Origin: Sashavirus 536P12
Direction: 5' to 3' (one strand)
Length of the DNA: 55,927 nt
Sequence record: OZ035768.1
Part shown: in pieces, positions 2,002 through 37,528 of the stretch
How the letters are laid out: each line of letters begins with the position of its first letter
How positions within the stretch are numbered: the first letter of the stretch is position 1
Position numbers and translations under genes: made by a program
Notes under the pieces: model-generated
What the model was told of the DNA's origin: nothing
What the model saw: only the letters and a program-made list of their open reading frames with translations
The model's database searches: none

Positions 2002-2586
2002 TTACTCAGTGAAAAGTTTCACCAACAGTTTGTTAATGTCAGCATCATAAGCATCATAAGCAGCACGAGCAGCATAAGCATCAGCAGCACGAGCAGCACG
2101 AGCAGCACGAGCAGCACGAGCAGCACGAGCAGCATCATAAGCAGCACGAGCAGCATAAGCAGCAGCATAAGCAGCAGCACGAGCAGCACGAGCAGCATAA
2201 GCAGCATAAGCAGCAGCATAAGCAGCACGAGCAGCACGAGCAGCATCAGCAGCATCAGCAGCATCATAAGCAGCACGAGCAGCATAAGCAGCATAAGCAG
2301 CATTCTGTGATGGATTGTTAAGAAAATCCTGAATCAGATTAAAGTCATTCGTATAAGGTCGAATCAATTCGATATTCAACAAAGCACAATCGCAAGCGAA
2401 CCGAACGATTTTTTCTTTCGATAAGATTTTCCCGGCTAACCATAACAAGTCTGAAACGGTGTTTTCACCACCGATTAGACTAATAACTTCAACAGGTTCG
2501 TCAGTGTTGTTAGTCTGAATGATGAAACGTTTAAAACCTTCCTGACATGCGCCAAAATTTTTCAGTTCTTGTTTAGTGATTTTCAT
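2002..2586 (-). CDS. protein with N-terminal globular domain and C-terminal Ala-Ala-(Arg/Tyr/Asp) tripeptide repeat array
   Basis: 194-aa ORF; residues ~95-185 are AAY/AAR/AAD repeats encoded by a near-perfect 9-bp tandem DNA array; GAGGG SD upstream of ATG at 2586; driven by promoter P2. Confidence 0.6.
   Translation of the reverse strand: MKITKQELKNFGACQEGFKRFIIQTNNTDEPVEVISLIGGENTVSDLLWLAGKILSKEKIVRFACDCALLNIELIRPYTNDFNLIQDFLNNPSQNAAYAAYAARAAYDAADAADAARAARAAYAAAYAAYAARAARAAAYAAAYAARAAYDAARAARAARAARAARAADAYAARAAYDAYDADINKLLVKLFTE
2035..2303. repeat. tandem 9-bp (3-codon) repeat array (agcacgagc / agcataagc / agcatcagc), ~30 units
   Basis: directly visible periodicity in sequence 2035-2303; lies inside the 2002..2586 CDS. 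Confidence 0.9.
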
Positions 2587-2921: not shown

Positions 2922-4685
2922 ATGATTAAGTTTACTGGAAATATTCATAATTACCCGCGCTGGCGGGATGCTTACGCAAACGACGAACGTATCTGGCGAA
3001 AAGGTCATCCACGCCCGGATTACAAACAGTGTTACATTGACCGCATTAACCTGTTAAATCGTATGCGCATGGATCGGGTCATTGTCCCGGTGCTGAAAAA
3101 GTATTACGAAACAAACCCGGTAGCATTCATTCTCGACTGGGCGTTTACTTATGACCCGCGTAACGTCGGTACTGAATACCCGCCAAACATGCCTTTCTGC
3201 CTTTTCGAACGTCAGATCGACATGGTTCAGTTTGTTTACGAAGCGCTTGAAGACAAAGAAAAAGGGCTTTGGGAAAAATCGCGAGACTATGGTGCGACCT
3301 GGGTAGCCTGTGGTTTGTCCGTGTGGGCGTGGCTGTATCGTCCCGGTTCTTCAGTTGGCTGGGGATCACGTAAAGAGCAACTTGTTGATAAACTGGGCGA
3401 CCCGGATAGTATTTTTGAAAAGATTCGCCAGATTATCCGTGCATTACCACCGGAATTACGCCCTGTTGGTCTGCGTGAAAAAGACCATCTGGTTTACATG
3501 AAATGTATCAACCCTGAAAACGGTGCAACAATTACTGGCGAAGCTGGTGACAACATCGGTCGTGGTGGTCGTAAATCTGTCTATTTCTTGGATGAAGCGG
3601 CACACGTAGATCGTCCTGAACTGATTGAAGCGTCGTTGTCAGCTAACACCAACGTTCGTATCGACATCAGTTCAGTTAATGGCGTTGGTAATGTTTTTTA
3701 TCGTAATCGTAAAGCTGGTCTGGAATGGGAACCGGGTAAGAAATTACCCCGTGGTAAATTGCGTGTCATGGTTCTGGACTGGCGCGATCACCCGGCTAAA
3801 GACGACGAATGGTATAAGCGAGAAAAACAATCGTTCGCTGAAAAAGGTTTACAGCATATTTTCGCACAGGAAGTCGATCGCGACTATGCCGCTGCTGTTC
3901 AGGGTGTACTGATTAAAGCTGAATGGGTGCGCGCTGCTTTTGACGCGTTCCGTGATACAGAATGGCGCAAAGCTAACGACTTACTTACACCAACAGGTCA
4001 ACGTATCGCCGGACAGGATGCCGCAGACGGTGGTGAAGATGCAAGTGCATTGGTAATTGCTCACGGTGTATTCCTGACACATCTACAGCTTGACCACAGG
4101 GGCGCTGAACTGGCTGCACCAGGGATGTTGACGATGGCTAATATGCTGGGTGTTGATGAATACTGGTACGAAGTTAACGGTGTTGGTACAGGCGTTAAAG
4201 TAGCGGCAAATGACCGGAAAGATATTTTACGCTTCCGTGTGCGTCCGTGGTTACCGAATGGAAAAGTTGTGGATCCGGGTGGTGATATTATCGGTGGTAC
4301 GAAACCTGGTGACAAAGACCGTAAATCAAACAAAGATTATTTCTCAAATTATAAAGCACAGGCATCATGGGCGCTGCGTCTGCGTTGTCAGCGAATTTAT
4401 AAATGGTATGTGGAAGGTCAACCACAGGATCCAGACGAAATCATTCTGATTGATCCATCACTGGAAAACGCACAACGGTTAGAAGCTGAGTTAAGTCAGC
4501 CAACGTATACCAGTAACGGTGCCGGGAAGATTGTGATCGACAAGAAACCAAACGGAAGTAAGTCACCAAACTTTTTCGATGCTGCGGTTATTGCACTATC
4601 ACCAAAACGCACTGAATTTGTCGAAGAACCATTTACTGGTGGTGTGAATCCTGTTGGTACTCCTGAATACGGTGACATTTTTTAA
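2922..4685 (+). CDS. terminase large subunit (TerL)
   Basis: 587 aa; Walker A-like EKSRDYGATW, Walker B-like VYFLDEAAH, C-terminal nuclease-like region; size and position typical of TerL. Confidence 0.75.
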   Translation: MIKFTGNIHNYPRWRDAYANDERIWRKGHPRPDYKQCYIDRINLLNRMRMDRVIVPVLKKYYETNPVAFILDWAFTYDPRNVGTEYPPNMPFCLFERQIDMVQFVYEALEDKEKGLWEKSRDYGATWVACGLSVWAWLYRPGSSVGWGSRKEQLVDKLGDPDSIFEKIRQIIRALPPELRPVGLREKDHLVYMKCINPENGATITGEAGDNIGRGGRKSVYFLDEAAHVDRPELIEASLSANTNVRIDISSVNGVGNVFYRNRKAGLEWEPGKKLPRGKLRVMVLDWRDHPAKDDEWYKREKQSFAEKGLQHIFAQEVDRDYAAAVQGVLIKAEWVRAAFDAFRDTEWRKANDLLTPTGQRIAGQDAADGGEDASALVIAHGVFLTHLQLDHRGAELAAPGMLTMANMLGVDEYWYEVNGVGTGVKVAANDRKDILRFRVRPWLPNGKVVDPGGDIIGGTKPGDKDRKSNKDYFSNYKAQASWALRLRCQRIYKWYVEGQPQDPDEIILIDPSLENAQRLEAELSQPTYTSNGAGKIVIDKKPNGSKSPNFFDAAVIALSPKRTEFVEEPFTGGVNPVGTPEYGDIF

Positions 4686-4690
4686 ACAGT

Positions 4691-4724
4691 GTGGCGGGAT
4701 TATTCCCGCCCGTTTTCTTTTTTT
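4691..4724 (+). terminator. rho-independent terminator
   Basis: GGCGGGATTATTCCCGCC hairpin followed by a T-run immediately after the TerL stop. Confidence 0.7.
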
Positions 4725-4725
4725 A

Positions 4726-4760
4726 ATTCTTGACAAATTACATTATAAATGTTTGTAAAT
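4726..4760 (+). promoter_or_regulatory. promoter (partial copy of conserved element, + orientation)
   Basis: AATTCTTGACA with TTGACA at 4730-4735; -10 unclear (TGTAAAT near 4754-4760 or TATACT at 4787-4792); upstream of the strong AGGAG RBS of the gene at 4849. Confidence 0.4.
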
Positions 4761-4848
4761 TATCTGTTAGATTAATGTAACGCGTTTATACTCCTGTAGG
4801 TAACCGATCGGTTACAGTTAATTAACATTCTCTCACAGGAGTTTCAAC

Positions 4849-5526
4849 ATGTCTGACATGACTTTAGTTCCCACTGGCGGTTTCGGCGGTGAAGCTGGCG
4901 CGGCTGCACTTGGCGGTGGCATCGGTGGTCTTATCGGTTCCTGGTTCGGTAACGGTTGGGGTGGCGGTGGTAACTTTGGTGGTCCTGTAGAAGTTCAAGC
5001 CTCTGTAGATACCAACGCTATTCTGCAAGCCATCAATAACGGTGCTCTTCAGACCATTCAGGGTCAGAATGGTACAAACCTGACCGTTGAACGCGCTGCA
5101 GCTTCCACTTTTAACGGTATCACTCAACAGAACACACAAAACCTGCTGGCATCTGTACAAGGTTTTGCAGGTCTGAACACTCAGATTCAGCAGGGTACGA
5201 ACACTGTGACCAATGCGATCTGTGCATCTGAAACTGCGGCACTGACTCGTTCTTTCCAGGCACAGTTAGCGGCTGAGAAGTGTTGCTGCGAAACCAACCT
5301 GAATATCGAACGTCAGGCAGAAGCAACTCGTGCACTGATCCGTGATCAGTTCGCACAGTCTCAGGCTGTTCTGATTTGTGACCTGAAATCTCAGATTCAA
5401 ACCCGTGACTTCCAGTTGTCTCAATTGTCACAAACGTCTCAGTTGGCGTGCAAAATTAACCAGGTCGATCAGCTTATTAACTTCAAGCTGCCTACTCCGC
5501 AAACTCCACCGACTGGCTGCTGCTAA
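4849..5526 (+). CDS. Gly-rich / glycine-zipper N-terminus, Gln/Thr-rich, Cys-containing protein of unknown function
   Basis: 225 aa; N-terminal GGFGGEAGAAALGGGIGGLIGSWFGNGWGGGGNFGG, internal CCC, C-terminal GCC; strong SD AGGAG; first gene after TerL terminator. Confidence 0.6.
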   Translation: MSDMTLVPTGGFGGEAGAAALGGGIGGLIGSWFGNGWGGGGNFGGPVEVQASVDTNAILQAINNGALQTIQGQNGTNLTVERAAASTFNGITQQNTQNLLASVQGFAGLNTQIQQGTNTVTNAICASETAALTRSFQAQLAAEKCCCETNLNIERQAEATRALIRDQFAQSQAVLICDLKSQIQTRDFQLSQLSQTSQLACKINQVDQLINFKLPTPQTPPTGCC

Positions 5527-5576
5527 TTGGTTAACTAAGCGCCTCTGTACGGGGCGCTTTAACAGGAGATAAGAGT

Positions 5577-5936
5577 ATGCATTACAAACCGTATTACGTT
5601 ATCAAAAAAGACGATGATGACGATGAAGAGGAAGATGTAGAAATTCATCACCACCATCATTATCACCACGGACATCACCCGGACACGATGGGAGTATTTC
5701 ATCATGATAGCTCTGTTAGCGAACATGGTTCAGTTATGGCCCATGTTAAAGCACGTATGGATAACCCTCCTTCGACTTGGGCGTCGTACCACGATAAGCC
5801 CGGCGGGATGATGTCCATTGTTGAAATGGAATATCGCGAACTGATGGAAGAAAAAGCCGAAGGTTCGACGTCTGGTATTAAAAAAGAGCTAACAGATCTG
5901 GCTGCAGCCTGTATCAACGCGCTTAAAAAGATGTAA
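5577..5936 (+). CDS. histidine-rich acidic protein (putative metal-binding)
   Basis: 119 aa; DDDDDEEEDVEIHHHHHYHHGHHPD natural poly-His tract; good SD (AGGAGA). Confidence 0.6.
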   Translation: MHYKPYYVIKKDDDDDEEEDVEIHHHHHYHHGHHPDTMGVFHHDSSVSEHGSVMAHVKARMDNPPSTWASYHDKPGGMMSIVEMEYRELMEEKAEGSTSGIKKELTDLAAACINALKKM

Positions 5937-5952
5937 CTAACAGGAAACCGAC

Positions 5953-6456
5953 ATGCAGAATATTAACGCAGGTATGGGTGTCACCCAGTTTAACGGCATG
6001 AAACCGCGAAGCACTATTAACATTGGTGGTGTGGAGTGGTCATTACGTCGGGATGCCACTGACTCAACAACAATGTTTCCTCATCCGAAGGTAAGCTGGC
6101 TTAACGCTGGTTGTGAACCGATGGGTGATGGTCGTTTTCATTACTGTTGGATTTTGGGTGTGATTCCCCCGACACCGGGGACAATCGAACGACCTGTTAA
6201 TGTGATGTATGTTGGTTTCCATCAATTTAAAATTAATATTGCACCTAATTCAATTAGTCAGGCTGATTTGGACAGGATGCATGTTTATGTCAGCGACACT
6301 TCACATTTTGCTGGTGAATTTGTCAGTAAGTTTTTAGGTACAGAACCTGAACCTGTGGAAACTCGTGAAAATATCAGCCCGTGGCCCCCGATGAATGATC
6401 CTCGTGAGCAACCAAAAGTAGCCAAAAATAAGGTAAACGAAGATGACGAAGAATGA
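5953..6456 (+). CDS. hypothetical protein
   Basis: 167-aa ORF in the same operon; acidic C-terminus. Confidence 0.5.
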   Translation: MQNINAGMGVTQFNGMKPRSTINIGGVEWSLRRDATDSTTMFPHPKVSWLNAGCEPMGDGRFHYCWILGVIPPTPGTIERPVNVMYVGFHQFKINIAPNSISQADLDRMHVYVSDTSHFAGEFVSKFLGTEPEPVETRENISPWPPMNDPREQPKVAKNKVNEDDEE

Positions 6457-6697
6457 AGGGGTAGACAAAGTAGTCGAAAGTCTGGGGTTACGCGCACACG
6501 TAATCGTAGACGAAGGTCACAGTCAAGAAGTGATCATGAAGTCGGCATTTAACGATTTTAAAGCGTTGGGTTCAATGAGTGGGATCATGGCAGTGATGGC
6601 TACCGGGAAATTAAGTCAGCAACAGTTAGATCTGGCACAACGTATCGCTGTGAAAGTAATTGCCGTTTTAGGTCTTAAAGAGTCAGAAAAAGCGTAA
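6443..6697 (+). CDS. hypothetical protein
   Basis: 84-aa ORF overlapping the upstream gene end (translational coupling). Confidence 0.45.
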   Translation: MTKNEGVDKVVESLGLRAHVIVDEGHSQEVIMKSAFNDFKALGSMSGIMAVMATGKLSQQQLDLAQRIAVKVIAVLGLKESEKA

Positions 6698-30480: not shown

Positions 30481-32998
30481 TGTAATTGATGAACAGGCTG
30501 AAAACCTTGCTGAATGGTTGCTCGCAACATGGCCTGTCGGATCTGTTCGTCCACGTGGCCTTAAACTCTATAAAAATGAGGTTACTCCAGAAAATGACAT
30601 AACTCACGCGTGGGTTGGTGATCCGTCTGTAGTGATGGACAATAGTGCTAATTATATCGTTGTGGAACTTCCTAAAGGTCCGGTTGCTGCATTTGTTCCG
30701 TATATCATAGCAGCTATAGTTGCTGTTGCCGCAACTATTATTTTAACACCTAATGCGGGGCTATCTGCATCACTTAAAAATACTCGTTCAGCTTCTTCAA
30801 ATAACGCATTGCAAGGCCGTACCAACGCACCACGACCCGGTGAACGTATAGCAGATATCCGTGGTTATGTTCGTGCATACCCAGATCTTCTGATGGATTA
30901 TAAAATTTTCATTGACCGCACTGAATACGAAGTTCAGTTTCTATGTTTAGGCGCTGGTGAATATAAAATCGAAGATGTAAGAGATGGTATTACACCTGCG
31001 TTAAATATCAGTGGCGAACAGCTTGATTTTTATAAAAACAGTGCGGCACCTGGTTATGGTTCGCCATATATGAATATTGGCGGTGGTATCGATCTGTCTA
31101 AATTTCCAATAATGACAGCTAAATCATCAAATGAAGCCGATGGTTCTGAAGTCAAACCGCCTAATTATGCAGATATTAGTAACGCCAAATTTAAAATATT
31201 TAGCACGGGTGAAATTAATACCAGTATCACATCAGGAAGTGGTAACACTACTATTGATTGGACTGAACGTGCATCTACTGGTCAGGTTCGTCTTTCTGGT
31301 TTTTATAGTTTTACACCAAACACATTACCACTTAATACGTATACAAGAAATGATTTAAGCGGTTTATATGATGTTATATCATCCGGTGATGATTTTTTAA
31401 TACTTGACACTACTGGTCATGATGGGTGGGATGAATTATCATCTTCAGGTCAAGATGCGTATACACAGGCTTATTTGCGAAAAGACGGTTACTGGGAATT
31501 TGAAGCCACTGAAGGAAGCGAAAGTTTTTTATACAAATTTTCACCTGTTGTTGAAAGTACCGCACCTTATCAGGTTGGACCATACTTGTTAGATAGTGCA
31601 GATCGTGTAATGGTGAATTTGTATGCACAGTCTGGCGTATATAAAACAGATGGTGATATTTATCCTTTCACCTGTGATTTTCTTGTCATACTATCAGACC
31701 CCAATCATGTTCACGGGGATATTAGCCATTCTATGTCTGTTGTTGGTCGATATGATGAGGCTGTAGGTGCTACATTAATCGTAGATAATCCATTTAACGG
31801 ACCCGTTAATGTATCTGTTCGTCGTACTACTAATACAGATAAAGATTTCGAAGGTACTGTTGTAGATACGGTAAAATGGCGAGATTTATATGCTATAACT
31901 AATGTTCCCGCTCGTTCATATGGTGATGTAACATTAATTCATACAGTGACTAAAGCAACTAACGCAGCTTTAAAACAGAAAGAACGAAAACTAAACATGC
32001 TTGCAACCCGAGTGTATAATGGTGTTGCAAGTAGAAATTTTGCAGATGTAATAATGTCGATGCATACAGATCCATTTTTCGGTCGTCGAACTGTTGAAAG
32101 TATTGATGTTGACGCATTATATGACGTACAACAGCAGATATTAGATTATTTTGGTGATGGTCGTGCAATTGAAGTTGGTTATACATTTGACAGTAATAAC
32201 ACCACATATGAAGAAGCATTACAGGTTATTTGTGGACCAGTTAATATAATGCCCTATCAGGTCGGTAGTGTATTGTATTTCTGGCCTGAATTACCACAAG
32301 ACCAGTCCGCAATGCAGTTTGGTCATGCGTTTAAAGTACCAGATACTGATAAACGTACCCGGAGTTTTGCATCTAATAAAGATTTCACGGGTGTACAGGT
32401 GAAATATTTTGATCACGATGCTAAATCTTATTTATATATAACCAAAGGCGAAGAAACAAACCTTAATAAGATAGATCTTGTTGCGTGTCAGTCACGATAC
32501 CTTGCAAATATCCGTGCTAATCGTGAGATGAATAAATTACGTTATCAACGTATTACTCACGAGTGCACAGCGCTTAGTATCGGGTTACAGGCTACCCCGG
32601 GTATGCGTGTGGATATGATTGATAACACCCGTATGAAACAACACGAAGGTGTCGTAGTTGATGTTGACGGTTTAACGCTTATTCTTAGTGATCCTGTTAC
32701 GTTCACTACGGGTAATATATACAGCATAACGTTAACACACCGACTGGGAACACTTGAAAATATTCCTGTAACTGCCGGGGATGATGAATTTTCAGTGGTA
32801 ATGGCTTATCAACCGTCTGAAGAAATTTACACGGGGTGGTTACGTGACCGTACCGCATATGTTATCCGTGCTGATGACGAACGTAGCAAATTAGCGATGC
32901 TTGTTCAGAGTATGGAACCGTCAGGAAGAGATAATAACTATCAGGTAGGTTTAACGTGCATCAATTACGATGCACGTTATTATCAGGATGATTTATAA
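30434..32998 (+). CDS. tail tip / host-specificity protein candidate (gpI/gpJ-like region)
   Basis: 854 aa following the gpK-like gene; start uncertain (overlaps upstream gene by 47 nt). Confidence 0.5.
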   Translation: MVDIMARILYFKPGHDVIDEQAENLAEWLLATWPVGSVRPRGLKLYKNEVTPENDITHAWVGDPSVVMDNSANYIVVELPKGPVAAFVPYIIAAIVAVAATIILTPNAGLSASLKNTRSASSNNALQGRTNAPRPGERIADIRGYVRAYPDLLMDYKIFIDRTEYEVQFLCLGAGEYKIEDVRDGITPALNISGEQLDFYKNSAAPGYGSPYMNIGGGIDLSKFPIMTAKSSNEADGSEVKPPNYADISNAKFKIFSTGEINTSITSGSGNTTIDWTERASTGQVRLSGFYSFTPNTLPLNTYTRNDLSGLYDVISSGDDFLILDTTGHDGWDELSSSGQDAYTQAYLRKDGYWEFEATEGSESFLYKFSPVVESTAPYQVGPYLLDSADRVMVNLYAQSGVYKTDGDIYPFTCDFLVILSDPNHVHGDISHSMSVVGRYDEAVGATLIVDNPFNGPVNVSVRRTTNTDKDFEGTVVDTVKWRDLYAITNVPARSYGDVTLIHTVTKATNAALKQKERKLNMLATRVYNGVASRNFADVIMSMHTDPFFGRRTVESIDVDALYDVQQQILDYFGDGRAIEVGYTFDSNNTTYEEALQVICGPVNIMPYQVGSVLYFWPELPQDQSAMQFGHAFKVPDTDKRTRSFASNKDFTGVQVKYFDHDAKSYLYITKGEETNLNKIDLVACQSRYLANIRANREMNKLRYQRITHECTALSIGLQATPGMRVDMIDNTRMKQHEGVVVDVDGLTLILSDPVTFTTGNIYSITLTHRLGTLENIPVTAGDDEFSVVMAYQPSEEIYTGWLRDRTAYVIRADDERSKLAMLVQSMEPSGRDNNYQVGLTCINYDARYYQDDL

Positions 32999-33537: not shown

Positions 33538-36081
33538 TTACTGTGAAACTAATTTCTCCTCAATGATGCTCAGTCTCTCTGACAGACCACGCATCACGAA
33601 TCTGTCAAATTCCTGATCGCGTAATTGCCATACAGAACCAGACTCACGTACTAATTGCAGTTCGCCAGTTTCAACGACTTCGCCATCTACCTCAATGGTT
33701 ACCGGGGTATATTCATCATCCCACTCATCAAAACAGATAAATCCATAGCTCCGCCAGTCTAGACCTTCCTCTTCCAGAACAGCTAACACTGCTTGAACCG
33801 TAGTCCCTGCATGCAAACGCTTACTGTCATCATCAAGCCACGTCCAGAATCCAAACATTTTCGAGATGCGCATTGCTGCATTGAGTTCGGCCTGATTGAA
33901 CTCCCGGATAGGGTCTTTAAGTGTGGCATCTGAAGTTGACTGTGTTCCGCCAGCGAAGAAACCAACATTGTAGCGATTGCTTGCCCTGCCAAGGTTCTGC
34001 GTGGCGTCATTGACTGGATGCTGGGTTCCGTCAGATTTGAATACATACAGGGGGGTTAATGCACCCGAGGATGTGTTTCTTTGCGAGACGGTGAGATCGC
34101 CTATTGATGATGCCGTGACATCAGCACCGGAAAGATTGGCGTTACGAATAGAAAGGATGCTTTGCGGGCCAGCATTCCTCGGCAGCATAGTACCATCTGG
34201 CTTGATTATTGTGCTCTCGCCGTTATTGATGTAATCTCCCGTTGTGTTACCAGTCACTTCTCCAGAGCCTTTAAGCACAATTTTTGCGTGAGTTACGTTA
34301 ACCCCATAGCGACCGTTGCTCGTTGAATTGGCATTGGCGGCAGATATTAAGCCATCGTAAACAGCAACCAGACCATCCGTGCCATTTTGTGTGGCAGTTG
34401 AGTTAGTGAAAATAACTGCACCGCTATTTGAAGCGGTTACACCAATTAGCCTGTTTAAATAGCTCTTCCCATTTTGCAGATTTAATGCACCTGGTCCGCG
34501 TGATTCACCACCATTGGTATAGTTACCGCACGCAATCCCCCCTGGTGCCCCCAAAAAACCATGATTAAAAGACCAGAACCCATTCAACCCATTGCCAGAG
34601 CAAACTGATCCGTTAGCCTGTATTGCGCCACCAATATCAGCAATAATCCCATCCTCACCATTCCCTGAGCAAAGCATAAATTTACCGCGTATATGAGCGC
34701 CTTCAGAATATACACCGCGCTTGCGGTTAGAGCATGAAGATATAAAGTTTGAAACCACACCAGATCTTTCTGAAGCCACGACCCCCTGTTCTCCGAACCC
34801 AACGATCGCCAGATCAGGCCCAATTGCTATACATCCTGACGCATCAAAAACCACGTTGGATGGGTCTTGGATGGCAACAGTTATATCTGGAGTGGCAAGG
34901 GAGAAGCCATGTGCCCCGATAGTGCCAGTGCCGGCCACAAGGTCATAATCACCAACAATTGCGACACCGTTTATTGTCTTAATGCACCCAGCACCTGCAG
35001 CCACAATCCCATCACATCCGGCATATCTCAGAATACTTTTTAGTATGACTACTGTTCCGCCTGTAATCGTTGACGTTGGTAATTCAGACAGGTGGCAGGT
35101 GTTTTTTACGGTAACATTTTTGCCAGACACGGCAGTCACAACCCATCCGCCACAATGGATGTGATATCCTCCTGTCCCCGTTATATCGTGACGAATCATC
35201 ACGATGTCGCCTACAGAAACGTTTGAAGCATCAGCCAGAGAGAGCGTAACTAGGTATGATTTGGGGATACCAGATACACCCACTAAGCCAGTTAGCGTAG
35301 TTGAATACGTAATACCAGAAATAGAAAGTTTATGAACATTTTGTGATCTGATTAGCGTCTTTTCTGATAGGTTAACAGTTCCAACAGGAAGATTGATGGT
35401 CAAAGAACCTCTAAACTCTGCTCGTGAAAGCAATTTCAGTACAGAAGGAACCTGCGACAAGGTTGGCGTGGCCGTATAATCGCCTGGAGGCACAATGATG
35501 GTGCCGCTTGTCGCCGCTACCGCCTTAATGATTGCTCCCGCAACATCACCTCCGGTCAGGTAATCTGCAATGCTTATCGACTCCAGCATTTTGTCGTGAA
35601 CGGTTCTGACGACCGAGTCGCCTGGCTGCTTAACTACAACCAATGCATCTCCAGCCCCATCATGAGGACTACCCAGAACAGCCGAGCCAACTCCCAGCCA
35701 TTTTCCGATCCCAACACCACCTGCCGTGTCAGGAGTGGAACCTGGTGGAACAATTTTTCCTGATGGCAGAAATGCGCCATCCCAGCGGTAATATTCGCCA
35801 GTTGCCTTATATCGCAGCACCTGATTAGATAATGTAAGTGTCGCACCATCTTCGAAGCTATCCATCGTTATATAGCCGACCCGAGATATAGCCTGATTAT
35901 ACAGGTTTTCTAAACCATCAAGTGTCTTGTTAGTAACTGATTCGCCACGGATTGTATCGGTTGCTTCCAGTGCAGGTTTACCGGTAGCGTCACGACTTTT
36001 TGCAACGTGTTCAATATGTAAAATCGCTTGTTTGCCTGTTTTCAAATCATCAGCACTGATATAATCGTTACAGTTAGCCAT
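33538..36081 (-). CDS. tailspike / tail fibre with beta-helix region and C-terminal intramolecular chaperone (peptidase S74-like) domain
   Basis: ORF 33538..36108 begins with TTG; likely start ATG 36081 with GGAGA SD; Gly/Asn/Ser-rich central region; C-terminal TSDATLKDPIREFNQAELNAA matches the autoproteolytic chaperone motif. Confidence 0.75.
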   Translation of the reverse strand: MANCNDYISADDLKTGKQAILHIEHVAKSRDATGKPALEATDTIRGESVTNKTLDGLENLYNQAISRVGYITMDSFEDGATLTLSNQVLRYKATGEYYRWDGAFLPSGKIVPPGSTPDTAGGVGIGKWLGVGSAVLGSPHDGAGDALVVVKQPGDSVVRTVHDKMLESISIADYLTGGDVAGAIIKAVAATSGTIIVPPGDYTATPTLSQVPSVLKLLSRAEFRGSLTINLPVGTVNLSEKTLIRSQNVHKLSISGITYSTTLTGLVGVSGIPKSYLVTLSLADASNVSVGDIVMIRHDITGTGGYHIHCGGWVVTAVSGKNVTVKNTCHLSELPTSTITGGTVVILKSILRYAGCDGIVAAGAGCIKTINGVAIVGDYDLVAGTGTIGAHGFSLATPDITVAIQDPSNVVFDASGCIAIGPDLAIVGFGEQGVVASERSGVVSNFISSCSNRKRGVYSEGAHIRGKFMLCSGNGEDGIIADIGGAIQANGSVCSGNGLNGFWSFNHGFLGAPGGIACGNYTNGGESRGPGALNLQNGKSYLNRLIGVTASNSGAVIFTNSTATQNGTDGLVAVYDGLISAANANSTSNGRYGVNVTHAKIVLKGSGEVTGNTTGDYINNGESTIIKPDGTMLPRNAGPQSILSIRNANLSGADVTASSIGDLTVSQRNTSSGALTPLYVFKSDGTQHPVNDATQNLGRASNRYNVGFFAGGTQSTSDATLKDPIREFNQAELNAAMRISKMFGFWTWLDDDSKRLHAGTTVQAVLAVLEEEGLDWRSYGFICFDEWDDEYTPVTIEVDGEVVETGELQLVRESGSVWQLRDQEFDRFVMRGLSERLSIIEEKLVSQ

Positions 36082-36107
36082 CTTTAAGTCTCCAGGAGTG
36101 TAGAACA

Positions 36108-36428
36108 ATGTCTGATAACCCAGTGTTAAGGTATTGGCCTATAATAGCATTTGTTGCCACGGGGTTGGTAGGTTACGGAGTAACTCAAAACCAAATCAAT
36201 TCTAATGAAAAAGATATTACTGATGCAAAAACCTATGCGCATGAGGCGCTTAATCTGGCAAAGCGAGTGGAATCCCGAGTGGATGTTCACGACATCAAAA
36301 TCGAATATCAGGCCACACAGAACGCTGAAATCCTCACTAGTGTTAAAGAGCTAACACAGTCAACAAATGACCTGAAAGTTGTTATTGAAGGTTTGAAAGC
36401 GGAACAACGTAAAACCGGGAGTAAGTGA
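36108..36428 (+). CDS. membrane protein with N-terminal TM helix and coiled-coil (holin/antiholin-like lysis protein candidate)
   Basis: 106 aa; YWPIIAFVATGLVGYGV TM; immediately upstream of the endolysin gene. Confidence 0.4.
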   Translation: MSDNPVLRYWPIIAFVATGLVGYGVTQNQINSNEKDITDAKTYAHEALNLAKRVESRVDVHDIKIEYQATQNAEILTSVKELTQSTNDLKVVIEGLKAEQRKTGSK

Positions 36429-36817
36429 TGAATAACTTTAAATTCAGTCAGAGAAGTGAAAATAATCTGAAAGGGGTTAACCCAGATCTTGTGAAAATCG
36501 TGCGTCGGGCACTTCAGTTATCACCCGTTGATTTCGGTATCACAGAAGGTTTACGAACTGTTGAACGACAACGACAACTGGTTGCTGCAGGTAAAAGTCA
36601 GACAATGAACAGTCGTCATATTTCGGGTCACGCAGTGGATGTATTTGCTTATCCTACATCTGCCGGGTCGTGGGAGTGGAAGTATTACGAACAAATTGCC
36701 ACTGCATTTAAACAGGCTGCAAAAGAACTGAATATCCCTGTTGAATGGGGTGGTGACTGGAAAACACTGAAAGATGGTCCACACTTCCAGTTACCACATG
36801 CGAAATATCCGGCGTGA
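36425..36817 (+). CDS. endolysin, L-alanyl-D-glutamate peptidase (peptidase M15 / T5-type)
   Basis: 130 aa; metal-binding motif SRHISGHAVDV...; overlapping start with the upstream gene. Confidence 0.75.
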   Translation: MMNNFKFSQRSENNLKGVNPDLVKIVRRALQLSPVDFGITEGLRTVERQRQLVAAGKSQTMNSRHISGHAVDVFAYPTSAGSWEWKYYEQIATAFKQAAKELNIPVEWGGDWKTLKDGPHFQLPHAKYPA

Positions 36818-36827
36818 GATAACAATC

Positions 36828-37058
36828 ATGGATAAATTCAGCATATTACGTAACACAACCGGGGGGATCTCTTTAAGCCGCGCACAAGCGGCTTTAGGCT
36901 TCCTCGTGGTAACAGGTATTCTGATTTATCAGACCGTGGACCGCACACTTGATGATACAGTGCTGTTAACCTATTTCGGTTTCTGTATAGGTCAGTATGT
37001 TGGTGCTAAAAAAATCGCTGTAGATAAACAACGAGGTACACCAAATGACAACCCGTAG
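36828..37058 (+). CDS. holin-like small membrane protein (2 TM)
   Basis: ORF 36774; likely start ATG 36828; hydrophobic segments AALGFLVVTGILIY and VLLTYFGFCIGQYVGA. Confidence 0.4.
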   Translation: MDKFSILRNTTGGISLSRAQAALGFLVVTGILIYQTVDRTLDDTVLLTYFGFCIGQYVGAKKIAVDKQRGTPNDNP

Positions 37059-37443
37059 TGTGTTAATCACCGTTGTTGCAACTGTTCTGGTATTAGGCGC
37101 TGGTGCGTATACGTGTTACCACGCGGGATATAAAGCACGGGTAAATGAAGAACGTCAGGAACGTTTAGACGATGCACAACGGGAACAACAACGGTTAAAG
37201 GCACAACAGGAACTGGCAGATGATGTACTTCGTGGTTTAGCTGACTGGTCGCAGAATACTAAAATCGTGGAAATACGACATGAAAAGACTAATACTGTTT
37301 TTCGTAACGAGTGTCTTACTTCTGAATATCAACGCTTGTACAACGAACGAGTTACCGAAGCAGAAGCCCGTTTATCAGGCCGCATTAGTTCAGAAGTGTC
37401 AGACCGAAAACCTTCCACGGCTGAACGGTCTGACAGGAAGTGA
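37045..37443 (+). CDS. i-spanin (Rz-like)
   Basis: 132 aa; N-terminal TM (VLITVVATVLVLGAGAY) then charged coiled-coil; contains an out-of-frame lipoprotein gene. Confidence 0.55.
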   Translation: MTTRSVLITVVATVLVLGAGAYTCYHAGYKARVNEERQERLDDAQREQQRLKAQQELADDVLRGLADWSQNTKIVEIRHEKTNTVFRNECLTSEYQRLYNERVTEAEARLSGRISSEVSDRKPSTAERSDRK

Positions 37444-37528
37444 TTCAACAGATGTTAATGACCAGTGGTTAGATATTTATTTCAAATGTGCAACTATTCA
37501 CAACGCATTAGTAGACAGTCTTCAGTAA
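37280..37528 (+). CDS. o-spanin (Rz1-like outer-membrane lipoprotein)
   Basis: 82 aa; signal peptide and Cys (MKRLILFFVTSVLLLNINAC); starts inside the Rz-like gene in a different frame and extends past its stop. Confidence 0.5.
   Translation: MKRLILFFVTSVLLLNINACTTNELPKQKPVYQAALVQKCQTENLPRLNGLTGSDSTDVNDQWLDIYFKCATIHNALVDSLQ

What the first reader, a model, noticed from the sequence alone, without database searches (positions are those of the whole stretch)
4849..5526. Highly expressed Gly-zipper / Gln-Thr-rich / Cys-tailed protein of unknown function
The 225-aa protein starts with a Gly-rich segment containing GxxxG-type glycine-zipper spacing (GGIGGLIGSWFGNGWGGGG), continues with a long Q/N/T-rich helical-looking region, and carries a CCC triplet and a terminal GCC. 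It has the strongest-looking RBS in its region and is the first gene after the TerL terminator. The features recall membrane-active or bacteriocin-like peptides, or an unusual virion decoration protein; I cannot place it in a known family.
Basis: seen in the sequence. Interest (0 to 1): 0.6.

Follow-up and report, generated by a model that had tools for sequence, protein, structure and literature searches.

The report
Abundant dispensable phage accessory-cassette protein
This gene makes a glycine-, glutamine- and cysteine-rich protein that appears to be produced at capsid-protein levels, yet it is the lead gene of a four-gene cassette that hops between unrelated virulent phages and that lab phages have lost repeatedly, so it is a real, conserved but non-essential accessory function that nobody has yet characterised.

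Summary
ORF 4849-5526 (+) encodes a 225-aa protein with a Gly-rich head, a Q/N/T-rich body, a CCC triplet and a terminal CC, preceded by an AGGAG Shine-Dalgarno and the TerL terminator.

It belongs to an uncharacterised phage family (phrog_9288; more than 1,000 clusters). It has no Pfam, NCBIfam, PADLOC or PDB relative.

New findings:
- It is the first gene of a conserved cassette: X, a MazG-like His-rich protein, a 167-aa protein and an 84-aa protein. The cassette occurs in Sashavirus, Queuovirinae, Drexlerviridae, Eiauvirus, Yersinia phages and a T4-like contig, usually at the end of the tail-fibre locus.
- X is an autonomous high-expression unit. It has a −10 box, a conserved 5' hairpin with compensatory changes, a strong SD, codon optimisation equal to the major capsid protein, and a hairpin before gene 2.
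- It is dispensable. 9NA, TLS and PLYYY01 carry deletions, KurtStettler carries a fusion, and T5-like phages carry decayed remnants.
- The "lateral tail fiber chaperone" label is annotation transfer from an S74 fusion.

Function remains inferred. The options are a bulk, self-associating accessory protein acting on the host (about 0.4), a non-essential virion decoration or fibre (about 0.3), or a fibre helper (about 0.1). Only the glycine zipper and the CCC motif are conserved across the family; the terminal GCC is not.

The parts
4693..4725 (+). Intrinsic terminator of the terminase large subunit gene (stem 4693-4710 plus T-run). It isolates the X unit from upstream transcription.
   Evidence: 7-bp stem, 6 GC pairs, T-run; sequence
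4787..4792 (+). −10-like box TATACT, 7 nt before the leader hairpin. The −35 is weak in this phage. Tlsvirus-type relatives have a full sigma-70-like TTGTCA-16-TAGAAT at the same place.
   Evidence: aligned −10-like boxes TATACT/TAGAAT/TAAATT/TATTCT; 10/12 promoter match in L029 and L031. The transcription start is inferred, not mapped.
4800..4815 (+). Conserved 5'-leader hairpin: GTAACC, loop GATC, GGTTAC. It probably lies at the 5' end of the mRNA. Likely role: transcript stabilisation or a regulatory site.
   Evidence: 5 consensus pairs kept in 10 lineages (one broken cell), 3 pairs with compensatory double changes
4837..4841 (+). Shine-Dalgarno AGGAG, 7 nt upstream of the ATG
4849..5526 (+). 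X: a 225-aa Gly-zipper / Q-N-T-rich / CCC protein (phrog_9288). It is the bulk product of the cassette.
4876..4983 (+). Codons 10-45: the Gly/aromatic-rich head with the conserved small-xxx-small register (22/26/30/34), interleaved with L28, I29, W32 and F33
5281..5289 (+). CCC triplet (C145-147) within the family motif CCCxT..I..EGxATRxL
   Evidence: 87-92% conserved in the divergent alignment
5538..5560 (+). GC-rich hairpin (AGCGCC...GGCGCT) plus a short T-run between X and gene 2. Probably an attenuating terminator that sets a high X : g2-4 ratio.
   Evidence: an equivalent hairpin follows X in all 8 other loci examined
5577..5936 (+). Gene 2: 119 aa, with a His/acidic-rich N-terminal tract (HHHHHYHHGHH) and a conserved C-terminal MazG-like two-helix core
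   Evidence: profile hit to PDB 2P06 AF_0060, E=8e-6
5953..6456 (+). Gene 3: 167 aa, an alpha/beta protein with an acidic disordered tail. It is the best-conserved partner of X and has no known fold relative.
6443..6697 (+). Gene 4: 84 aa, a small protein of unknown function and the last gene of the cassette

Best explanation
X is the bulk product of a self-contained, horizontally mobile and dispensable four-gene accessory cassette (X, MazG-like g2, g3, g4) of virulent phages. It is not a core virion or assembly protein, and it is not a tail-fibre chaperone.

The cassette brings its own expression signals:
- a −10 box (a full sigma-70-type promoter in some lineages)
- a conserved hairpin at the presumed 5' end of the mRNA
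- a strong SD
- capsid-grade codon usage
- a hairpin after X that lets only part of the transcription run into g2-g4.

X is therefore made stoichiometrically, in capsid-like amounts, with the three partners at lower levels.

Most likely mechanism (inferred). The conserved N-terminal helix has one glycine face (positions 22/26/30/34) and one Leu/Ile/Trp/Phe face. It drives tight self-association, probably at a membrane interface. The Q/N/T-rich body is built from units of about 11 residues ('QGFxGLN') whose number varies between homologues, and it forms an extended stalk. The near-invariant CCC (plus C177) locks the oligomer through disulfides or a metal.

I think the assembled protein acts on the infected cell or its envelope, in competition, exclusion or defence-related functions that matter in nature but not in laboratory monoculture, rather than on the virion.

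Shown: the gene's reality, the cassette, its mobility, its expression architecture and its dispensability. Inferred: oligomerisation, location and target.
For: Family and novelty:
- Full-length match only to phrog_9288, of unknown function.
- 204 clusters found with the single sequence, 1,082 with a profile.
- 108 clusters at 50% identity among 1.84 billion representatives.

Cassette:
- g2, g3 and g4 are homologous and collinear in Sashavirus, Seuratvirus, Hanrivervirus, Eiauvirus, Yersinia YenM_22, a T4-like contig and two other contigs.
- 31 of 34 IMG/VR loci carry it intact.

Mobility:
- X is 72-83% identical between phage groups whose flanking S74 fibre domains are only 25-46% identical.
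- The insertion site differs between lineages.
- It is absent from GTDB representative genomes, 5,426 complete E. coli genomes and 72,556 plasmids.

Expression:
- Fop is 0.756, rank 2 of 77, equal to the major head protein.
- X ranks 1-2 (z = 2.0-3.3) in 8 other loci, and a hairpin follows X in every one.
- The 5' hairpin is conserved with compensatory changes, and −10 boxes or sigma-70-like promoters precede it.

Dispensability:
- 9NA lacks window ~4985-6024: most of X, all of g2 and the start of g3.
- TLS keeps only a g4 remnant.
- PLYYY01 fuses a fibre to X residues 148-225.
- KurtStettler fuses an S74 domain to X.
- Epseptimavirus copies are frameshifted remnants without CCC.

Conserved core: the glycine register, QGFAGLN, CCC and LCDAKAKI.

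Against a virion role: the cassette sits in siphoviruses of four unrelated groups, in Yersinia phages named vB_YenM and in a T4-like contig.
Against: - There is no direct evidence of location, oligomeric state or target.
- The Gly-rich segment is too weakly hydrophobic for a classical TM helix (maximum 19-residue Kyte-Doolittle mean 0.84).
- I see no signal peptide or lipobox in any of the four proteins (by inspection only).
- The AF2 monomer model is low confidence (pLDDT 51), and no clear heptad periodicity supports a coiled coil.
- In most lineages the cassette sits next to tail-fibre genes. Its capsid-like expression and its loss in lab phages fit a non-essential virion decoration or fibre equally well.
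- No virion proteome of a phage carrying X could be found. TLS, whose gel I read, lacks X.
Confidence: 0.4

Rival explanations
1. X is a non-essential virion-associated decoration or accessory fibre, comparable in logic to T4 Hoc, Soc or fibritin, SPP1 gp12 or lambda Stf. It would be made in capsid-like amounts, attached to the head or tail with the help of g2-g4, useful in natural environments (adhesion, stability) and lost during laboratory propagation.
For: - Codon optimisation equals the major head protein.
- It lies among structural genes or at the end of tail-fibre loci.
- The Q/N/T-rich body is repetitive and varies in length, as in phage fibres.
- It has been lost repeatedly in long-propagated lab phages 9NA and TLS, as happened to lambda stf (the lambda case is from my own knowledge).
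- It has no secretion signal, so it is cytoplasmic, where virions assemble.
Against: - The cassette moves between phages with unrelated capsids and tails, including a T4-like contig. A docking site would have to exist in all of them.
- Its position relative to head genes is not conserved.
- In KurtStettler, X is fused behind an S74 autoproteolytic chaperone that is normally released from the fibre.
- There is no homology to any known decoration protein.
- A sigma-70-type promoter suggests expression is not tied to late transcription.
Confidence: 0.3
2. X is a helper for tail-fibre or tailspike maturation, as two GenBank records annotate it ('lateral tail fiber chaperone'). It might, for example, assist trimerisation or handle S74-type fibres.
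For: - It is annotated so in PJ16 and KurtStettler.
- It lies directly downstream of an S74-type fibre C-terminus (gap 88-500 nt) in 23 of 47 loci.
- It lies next to other tail-fibre genes in Eiauvirus, L009 and L012.
- The window phage has an S74 tailspike at 33538-36108(−).
- 9NA, whose tailspike is described as a homologue of the P22 and Det7 tailspikes (PMC4153490; that this type lacks an S74 domain is my own knowledge, not tested here), has lost X.
Against: - The label traces to KurtStettler bas22_0024. There only the N-terminal part carries Peptidase_S74 (residues 208-259, E=1e-14), and X is fused behind it. X itself has no S74 or Tfa signature.
- S74 fibres carry their own intramolecular chaperone (established knowledge).
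- X is far more conserved than the fibres it flanks.
- In Sashavirus-type phages it is unlinked to the tailspike.
- Capsid-level expression is out of proportion to a few fibres per virion.
- Several lineages have no adjacent fibre.
Confidence: 0.1
3. X is a bacteriocin-, microcin- or RiPP-like precursor: a Gly/Cys-rich product made in bulk from a 'structural gene, leaky terminator, processing genes' operon, modified by g2-g4 and released at lysis to act on neighbouring cells.
For: - The operon layout resembles precursor-plus-modification operons: a highly expressed first gene, an attenuator, then low-level partners.
- The Gly-rich hydrophobic head recalls class II microcins (from memory).
- Conserved Cys residues.
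- g2 belongs to a nucleotide-pyrophosphatase-like superfamily.
Against: - At 225 aa it is far larger than microcins.
- It has no double-glycine leader or signal peptide.
- There is no ABC exporter, protease, cyclodehydratase, LanM-type or immunity gene in the cassette or nearby.
- g3 lacks a conserved catalytic Cys/His set.
- No Pfam or NCBIfam bacteriocin family matches.
Confidence: 0.05

Closest known systems
Peptidase_S74 intramolecular chaperone domains of tail fibres and endosialidases (the source of the 'lateral tail fiber chaperone' annotation)
   Same: X lies immediately downstream of S74-type fibre C-termini in Queuovirinae and Drexlerviridae. It is fused in-frame to one in phage KurtStettler.
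   Different: X has no S74 domain or any similarity to one. It is a separate gene in nearly all phages, is much better conserved than the adjacent S74 domains, and is unlinked to the S74 tailspike in this window.
Phage 'morons': autonomous promoter-gene-terminator units inserted between essential genes (lambda/HK97-type; from my own knowledge of Hendrix and colleagues' definition)
   Same: It has its own −10 box or promoter, and terminators flank X. Its presence or absence varies among close relatives. Its insertion site varies. It is not needed for plaque formation.
   Different: It is found only in virulent phages, not in prophages. It is a four-gene unit with an internal attenuator. Its expression signals point to capsid-level output rather than modest lysogen expression.
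Glycine-zipper membrane proteins (Pfam Gly-zipper families such as SlyB/Pcp-type lipoproteins; VacA-type GxxxG channels)
   Same: It has a conserved small-xxx-small register over about four turns with hydrophobic or aromatic residues between.
   Different: No Pfam Gly-zipper model matches even at E ≤ 1. I see no lipobox or signal peptide. Hydrophobicity is below the usual TM threshold. A 180-residue Q/N/T-rich body with CCC follows the zipper.
Non-essential virion decoration and fibre proteins (T4 Hoc, Soc and fibritin; SPP1 gp12; lambda Stf)
   Same: High inferred copy number, dispensability in the laboratory, and a repetitive fibrous-looking sequence.
   Different: There is no sequence relationship and no conserved position next to head genes. 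The cassette crosses virion types, it comes with three partner genes, and virion presence is untested.
MazG-like all-alpha NTP pyrophosphatases (for gene 2 only)
   Same: The g2 profile matches PDB 2P06 (AF_0060) at E=8e-6 over the conserved core. An E..E and E..D-type acidic pattern is present. BASEL annotates the Seuratvirus homologue as 'putative pyrophosphatase'.
   Different: Only about 60 residues are conserved. The second acidic motif is E-x-x-H in distant members. There is no Pfam MazG hit. The N-terminal His-rich tract is variable.

Membership tests
Tail-fibre chaperone (S74 intramolecular chaperone, or Tfa-type) | Peptidase_S74 (PF13884) or a tail-fibre-assembly domain in the protein | tested here: not met
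   Pfam scan of X at E ≤ 1 gives only two sub-threshold unrelated hits. In KurtStettler the S74 hit lies at residues 208-259, upstream of the X-homologous part.
Tail-fibre chaperone (S74 intramolecular chaperone, or Tfa-type) | Encoded directly next to the fibre it serves | tested here: inconclusive
   Adjacent to S74 fibres in 23 of 47 loci and to other fibre genes in three more lineages. Unlinked in this window and other Sashavirus-type loci, and absent from fibre neighbourhoods in L005 and L011.
Tail-fibre chaperone (S74 intramolecular chaperone, or Tfa-type) | Required for fibre assembly | not testable with these tools
   Natural deletions (9NA, TLS, PLYYY01) are viable. Lateral fibres are themselves dispensable on rough lab hosts, so this does not settle the question.
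Glycine-zipper membrane protein | Conserved (G/A/S)xxxGxxxG register | tested here: met
   Positions 22/26/30/34 are small in 92-100% of a divergent alignment. Positions 28/29/33 are small in 0-5% and position 32 in 16%. In the single sequence the run is not beyond chance (37% of shuffles).
Glycine-zipper membrane protein | Match to a curated Gly-zipper family model | tested here: not met
   No Pfam or NCBIfam match.
Glycine-zipper membrane protein | Hydrophobic membrane-spanning segment, or a signal or lipoprotein anchor | tested here: not met
   The maximum 19-residue Kyte-Doolittle mean is 0.84, below the conventional ~1.6. The N-terminus MSDMTLVPTGG is acidic with no basic n-region or lipobox (sequence).
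Class II microcin / bacteriocin | Small precursor with a leader peptide, plus a dedicated exporter and immunity gene nearby | tested here: not met
   225 aa. The neighbours are the g2-g4 proteins (a MazG-like protein and two of unknown function), TerL and small hypothetical genes.
Virion decoration protein (Hoc/Soc/Dec/gpD-like) | Homology to a known decoration family, or a conserved position beside the major capsid gene | tested here: not met
   No hits. The gene lies 13.5 kb from the major head gene here and after tail fibres elsewhere.
Virion decoration protein (Hoc/Soc/Dec/gpD-like) | Present in purified virions at high copy number | not testable with these tools
   No proteome of a carrier phage was found. 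The TLS gel is uninformative because TLS lacks X.
Moron-type autonomous accessory unit | Own promoter and terminator | tested here: inconclusive
   Terminators lie on both sides of X. Aligned −10 boxes occur in all lineages, and there is a 10/12 sigma-70-like promoter in L029 and L031. The consensus scan found no + strand promoter in the window itself, and no transcription start is mapped.
Moron-type autonomous accessory unit | Presence/absence polymorphism among close relatives, and dispensability | tested here: met
   9NA versus Sasha-type phages, and TLS versus other tlsviruses.
Alpha-helical coiled-coil fibre (fibritin-like) | Heptad (3.5-residue) hydrophobic periodicity | tested here: not met
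   The Fourier spectrum of family-averaged hydrophobicity for residues 50-215 peaks at 5.6, 2.95 and 2.2. Only a weak 3.65 peak appears for residues 50-140.

The most novel reading that the evidence does not exclude
X, g2, g3 and g4 form a previously undescribed, horizontally mobile accessory system of virulent enterobacterial phages. In it, a glycine-zipper protein made in capsid-like amounts assembles at the cell envelope, with a MazG-like nucleotide hydrolase and two helper proteins. Its role would be ecological and invisible in the laboratory. Examples are excluding competing phages, masking debris so that progeny are not lost, or neutralising membrane-targeting abortive-infection effectors.
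Probability: 0.25. Interest if true: 0.7.

Novelty: new variant of a known kind. Interest (0 to 1): 0.5.

Why it matters
A gene with expression signals as strong as the capsid gene's, conserved at 60-97% identity across unrelated phage families, should be doing something important. Yet it can be deleted, it has no characterised relative, and it is currently mislabelled in GenBank.

It is present in widely used model collections. BASEL phages carry it intact, or fused in the case of Bas22, and natural deletion variants already exist (9NA, TLS, PLYYY01). Its function is therefore directly testable.

Whichever way the test falls, it would add a new entry to the short list of known accessory functions encoded at phage host-recognition loci. 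That could be a new decoration or fibre, a new exclusion or defence-related factor, or a new type of fibre helper.

It also flags a cost-benefit trade-off relevant to phage therapy production strains: lab passage seems to select for its loss.

Tried and rejected
- Pfam, NCBIfam and PADLOC scans of X and g2-g4 gave nothing usable.
- A PDB sequence search with the X family profile returned only chance-level hits with E above 0.28 and no colicin, fibritin or fusion-protein relative. My remembered resemblances to colicin T-domains, the TolB box and viral fusion peptides therefore stay as leads only.
- AF2 of X with a 32-sequence alignment gave pLDDT 51, so I did not run a fold search on it.
- A Cys/His enzyme idea for g3 was dropped because the Cys and most His residues are not conserved in distant members.
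- Spanin or lysis role: rejected, because a complete lysis cassette lies at 36108-37528.
- Relationship to the tape measure protein (weak phrog_167 hit): hhalign probability 0.5%.
- Canonical coiled coil: no 3.5-residue periodicity.
- P0171 and P0193, apparent large fusions, are spurious repeat-composition matches.
- Co-inheritance of X with one particular S74 chaperone type: rejected.
- Prophage, plasmid or bacterial occurrence: none found. The first attempt with the divergent alignment failed for lack of conserved stretches.
- Literature. No paper uses the phrase 'lateral tail fiber chaperone'. The BASEL papers, the 9g, Vid5, TLS, AVIO78A and Sergei papers contain no data on this protein. 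Zeng et al. 2019 on 9NA-like phages is not held. One call was wasted on the wrong region of phage 9g.
- Rfam: only a sub-threshold chance match to mir-598.
Full report
**1. The observation**

Its composition is dominated by G (27), Q (27), A (26), T (22) and N (17). The eight cysteines lie at 125, 145-147, 177, 201 and 224-225.

An intrinsic terminator follows the terminase large subunit gene (2922-4685) at 4693-4710. AGGAG at 4837-4841 sits 7 nt before the start codon. The window is a nearly complete Sashavirus/Nonanavirus-type siphophage genome. The region is 94.7% identical to AVIO78A and 91-92% identical to KarinMuster/Bas82 and PJ16.

**2. Is it more than chance?**

The gene is certainly real.
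- It matches phrog_9288 (function unknown) end to end at E=5e-121.
- It has 204 homologous 90% clusters by single-sequence search and 1,082 by profile.
- It has 108 clusters at 50% identity in a library of 1.84 billion representatives.

The glycine zipper needs a caveat. Within this one Gly-rich segment, a five-in-register GxxxG run is reached by 37% of shuffles. Across a divergent alignment (25-63% identity), however, positions 22/26/30/34 are small residues in 92-100% of members. Positions 28/29/33 between them are small in 0-5% and position 32 in 16%.

The CCC triplet is kept in 87-92% of divergent members and C177 in 68%. C125, C201 and the terminal CC are specific to the enterobacterial lineage (5%).

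The family core is therefore:
- an N-terminal M-[SD]-D-M-x-L-P
- the glycine register
- one or more 'QGFxGLN' units
- CCCxT..I..EGxATRxL
- LCDAKAKI..LE.Q and SQxAQT
- a variable Thr/Pro/Ser-rich tail.

**3. No known relative**

Pfam, NCBIfam and PADLOC give nothing. A family profile finds no solved structure (best E 0.28). hhalign against this phage's tape measure protein is negative.

An AF2 model from a 32-sequence alignment is poor (pLDDT 51). It shows a disordered head and a single long helix, 76-213. Family-averaged hydrophobicity shows no dominant 3.5-residue periodicity. I therefore do not claim a canonical coiled coil.

Homologues differ in the number of ~11-residue 'NQGFxGxxNxx' units. 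That suggests an extended, repeat-built body.

**4. The existing annotation is an artefact**

Two GenBank records call the protein a 'lateral tail fiber chaperone'.

In the BASEL phage KurtStettler the 510-aa bas22_0024 consists of fibre repeats, a tip and a Peptidase_S74 intramolecular chaperone (residues 208-259, E=1e-14). It then continues in-frame into X from 'AGAAGIGG...' onward. In the related CAjan, X is a separate 235-aa gene 170 nt downstream of the S74 fibre.

The name belongs to the S74 part and was transferred to X in PJ16. Another BASEL record calls a homologue a 'putative sugar-binding protein'. No paper uses the chaperone phrase.

**5. A conserved four-gene cassette**

X is followed here by three genes:
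- g2 (5577-5936, 119 aa)
- g3 (5953-6456, 167 aa)
- g4 (6443-6697, 84 aa).

The same four genes occur in the same order in:
- Seuratvirus and Nonagvirus
- Hanrivervirus and other Tempevirinae
- Eiauvirus
- Yersinia phage YenM_22
- a 75-kb T4-like contig (with gp32, gp59 and Gp10_C)
- two further metagenomic phages.

Of 34 IMG/VR loci, 31 carry the intact collinear cassette.

g2 has a variable His/acidic-rich N-terminus and a conserved ~60-residue core. Its profile matches PDB 2P06 (AF_0060) at E=8e-6. As I recall, that entry belongs to the MazG-like all-alpha NTP-pyrophosphatase superfamily.

g4 is a small protein without relatives.

**6. Mobility**

The insertion site differs between lineages.
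- Here it lies after TerL.
- In Queuovirinae and Drexlerviridae it lies after the lateral tail fibre.
- In Eiauvirus it lies after a tail protein.
- In the T4-like contig it lies between tail genes.
- In L012 it lies upstream of a fibre gene.

An S74 HMM finds a fibre C-terminus 88-500 nt upstream of X in 23 of 47 loci. However, the flanking S74 domains are only 25-46% identical to one another, while X is 72-83% identical across the same phages. In this window the S74 tailspike (33538-36108, − strand) is 28 kb away.

The firm association is therefore with the downstream edge of host-recognition loci, not with one fibre type.

X is absent from GTDB species representatives (pattern scan), from 5,426 complete E. 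coli genomes and from 72,556 plasmids. It appears confined to virulent phages.

**7. Expression architecture**

The fraction of optimal codons in X is 0.756, rank 2 of 77 ORFs in the window (mean 0.553, sd 0.082). That is indistinguishable from the major head protein gene (0.768; phrog_1005). g2-g4 are average at 0.57, 0.47 and 0.56.

In eight other loci from different lineages X ranks first or second (z = 2.0-3.3). It is always followed by a GC-rich hairpin with a T-run before g2. In the window this hairpin is at 5538-5560.

Upstream, all lineages share two features:
- a −10-like box (TATACT here, 4787-4792), which in Tlsvirus-type loci is part of a full TTGTCA-16-TAGAAT promoter
- 6-9 nt further on, a hairpin GUARC-loop-GYUAC (4800-4815 here).

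The hairpin's five pairs are kept in ten lineages, and three pairs show compensatory double changes.

I infer a self-contained unit: promoter, 5'-terminal stabilising hairpin, strong SD, optimal codons and attenuator. It would produce much X and less g2-g4. The transcription start and its timing are not mapped. The consensus scan did not call a + strand promoter in the window itself.

**8. Dispensability**

- Phage 9NA keeps the leader and the first ~45 codons of X (annotated as gp12, 62 aa). It lacks the equivalent of window ~4985-6024: the rest of X, all of g2 and the first 28 codons of g3.
- Phage TLS has only a remnant of g4 between ssb and its stf fibre gene.
- PLYYY01 fuses a truncated fibre to X residues 148-225.
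- KurtStettler carries the S74-X fusion.
- Epseptimavirus (T5-like) phages carry frameshifted remnants that lack CCC and g2-g4.

X is thus not needed for plaque formation. It seems to need its partners, and it tends to be lost, notably in two long-propagated laboratory phages.

**9. What it most likely is**

What is shown:
- an abundant, stoichiometric (not catalytic) product
- of a mobile, autonomous, dispensable cassette of virulent phages.

What I infer:
- The N-terminal helix has a glycine face and a Leu/Ile/Trp/Phe face. It mediates tight self-association, perhaps at a membrane interface.
- The repeat-built body forms an extended stalk.
- CCC locks the oligomer by disulfides or a metal.
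- g2-g4 are low-level helpers.

I favour a host-directed, non-virion role (about 0.4) for three reasons. The cassette functions in phages with unrelated virions, including a T4-like contig and Yersinia phages named vB_YenM. It carries host-type expression signals. It sits where phages keep exclusion and host-range accessories.

A non-essential decoration or fibre (about 0.3) explains the capsid-like expression, the fibre neighbourhood and the loss in the laboratory equally well. It cannot be excluded without virion proteomics. A fibre helper (about 0.1) and a bacteriocin- or RiPP-like product (about 0.05) are less likely, for the reasons given under rival explanations.

The lysis cassette (36108-37528) is complete without X.

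**10. Novelty and verdict**

The family is already catalogued as a PHROG of unknown function, so the protein is not newly seen. The following appear undescribed in the literature I could search:
- the cassette
- its mobility
- its expression design
- its repeated natural loss
- the origin of the misleading annotation.

I rate it a new variant of a known kind, namely an autonomous accessory ('moron-like') unit at a host-recognition locus, with moderate interest (0.5). It is not astonishing, but it is unusually well set up for a decisive experiment.

Noticed in passing
window 2002-2586 (− strand): A 194-aa ORF whose C-terminal two-thirds is an Ala/Tyr/Arg/Asp repeat (AAYAARAARAAYDAA...). Its codon optimisation is fairly high (Fop 0.661). 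It is an odd low-complexity protein in the early-gene block between TerS and TerL.
   Followed up: no
window 5577-5936 (gene 2): An N-terminal acidic run (DDDDDEEED) is followed by HHHHHYHHGHH. Homologues have different but equally His-rich tracts. This suggests metal binding next to the MazG-like core, possibly related to the CCC site of X.
   Followed up: partly
L013 (phage 9NA, KJ802832) 5959-6147 and 6174-6524: 9NA gp12 (62 aa, 'hypothetical') is the truncated head of X, read into the deletion junction. gp13 is a 5'-truncated gene 3. Neither is annotated as a remnant.
   Followed up: yes
L050 (phage TLS, NC_009540) 31783-31980 (− strand): An unannotated remnant of cassette gene 4 (residues 18-83, 70% identity) lies between ssb and stf. 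It shows that TLS once had the cassette.
   Followed up: yes
L004 5791-6495 and L014 3294-3890 (Epseptimavirus rokbiter, vaffelhjerte): T5-like Salmonella phages carry a frameshifted, decaying copy of X directly after an S74-type fibre gene. It lacks the CCC motif and genes 2-4.
   Followed up: partly
L002 7041-8573 (KurtStettler bas22_0024); L001 6148-6846 (PJ16_015); KarlJaspers MZ501090 25083-25592: There are three different annotations for the same family. 'Putative lateral tail fiber chaperone' comes from the S74 fusion, 'lateral tail fiber chaperone' was transferred to a stand-alone X, and 'putative sugar-binding protein' is a third label. None is supported by the tests here.
   Followed up: yes
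L049 (Shigella phage 2019SD1, IMG/VR copy) ~5236-6580: The cassette is rearranged. Genes 3 and 4 lie on the opposite strand next to a C-terminal fragment of X and an S74 segment.
   Followed up: no
window 33538-36108 (− strand) and 36108-37528 (+ strand): The tailspike has Tail_spike_N and a C-terminal Peptidase_S74 chaperone. It is encoded divergently from a complete lysis cassette: a holin-like 106-aa protein, a 130-aa endolysin-like protein, a 94-aa membrane protein, and overlapping i- and o-spanin genes.
   Followed up: partly
window 5610-5679 (− strand): A sub-threshold Rfam match to mir-598 (32 bits against a gathering score of 69) falls in the GAT/GAA/CAT-rich part of gene 2. It is almost certainly a chance match to repetitive sequence.
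   Followed up: no
window 4731-4736: A perfect TTGACA lies about 50 nt upstream of the −10-like box and is also present in 9NA. It has no properly spaced −10 partner. Its role, if any, is unclear.
   Followed up: no
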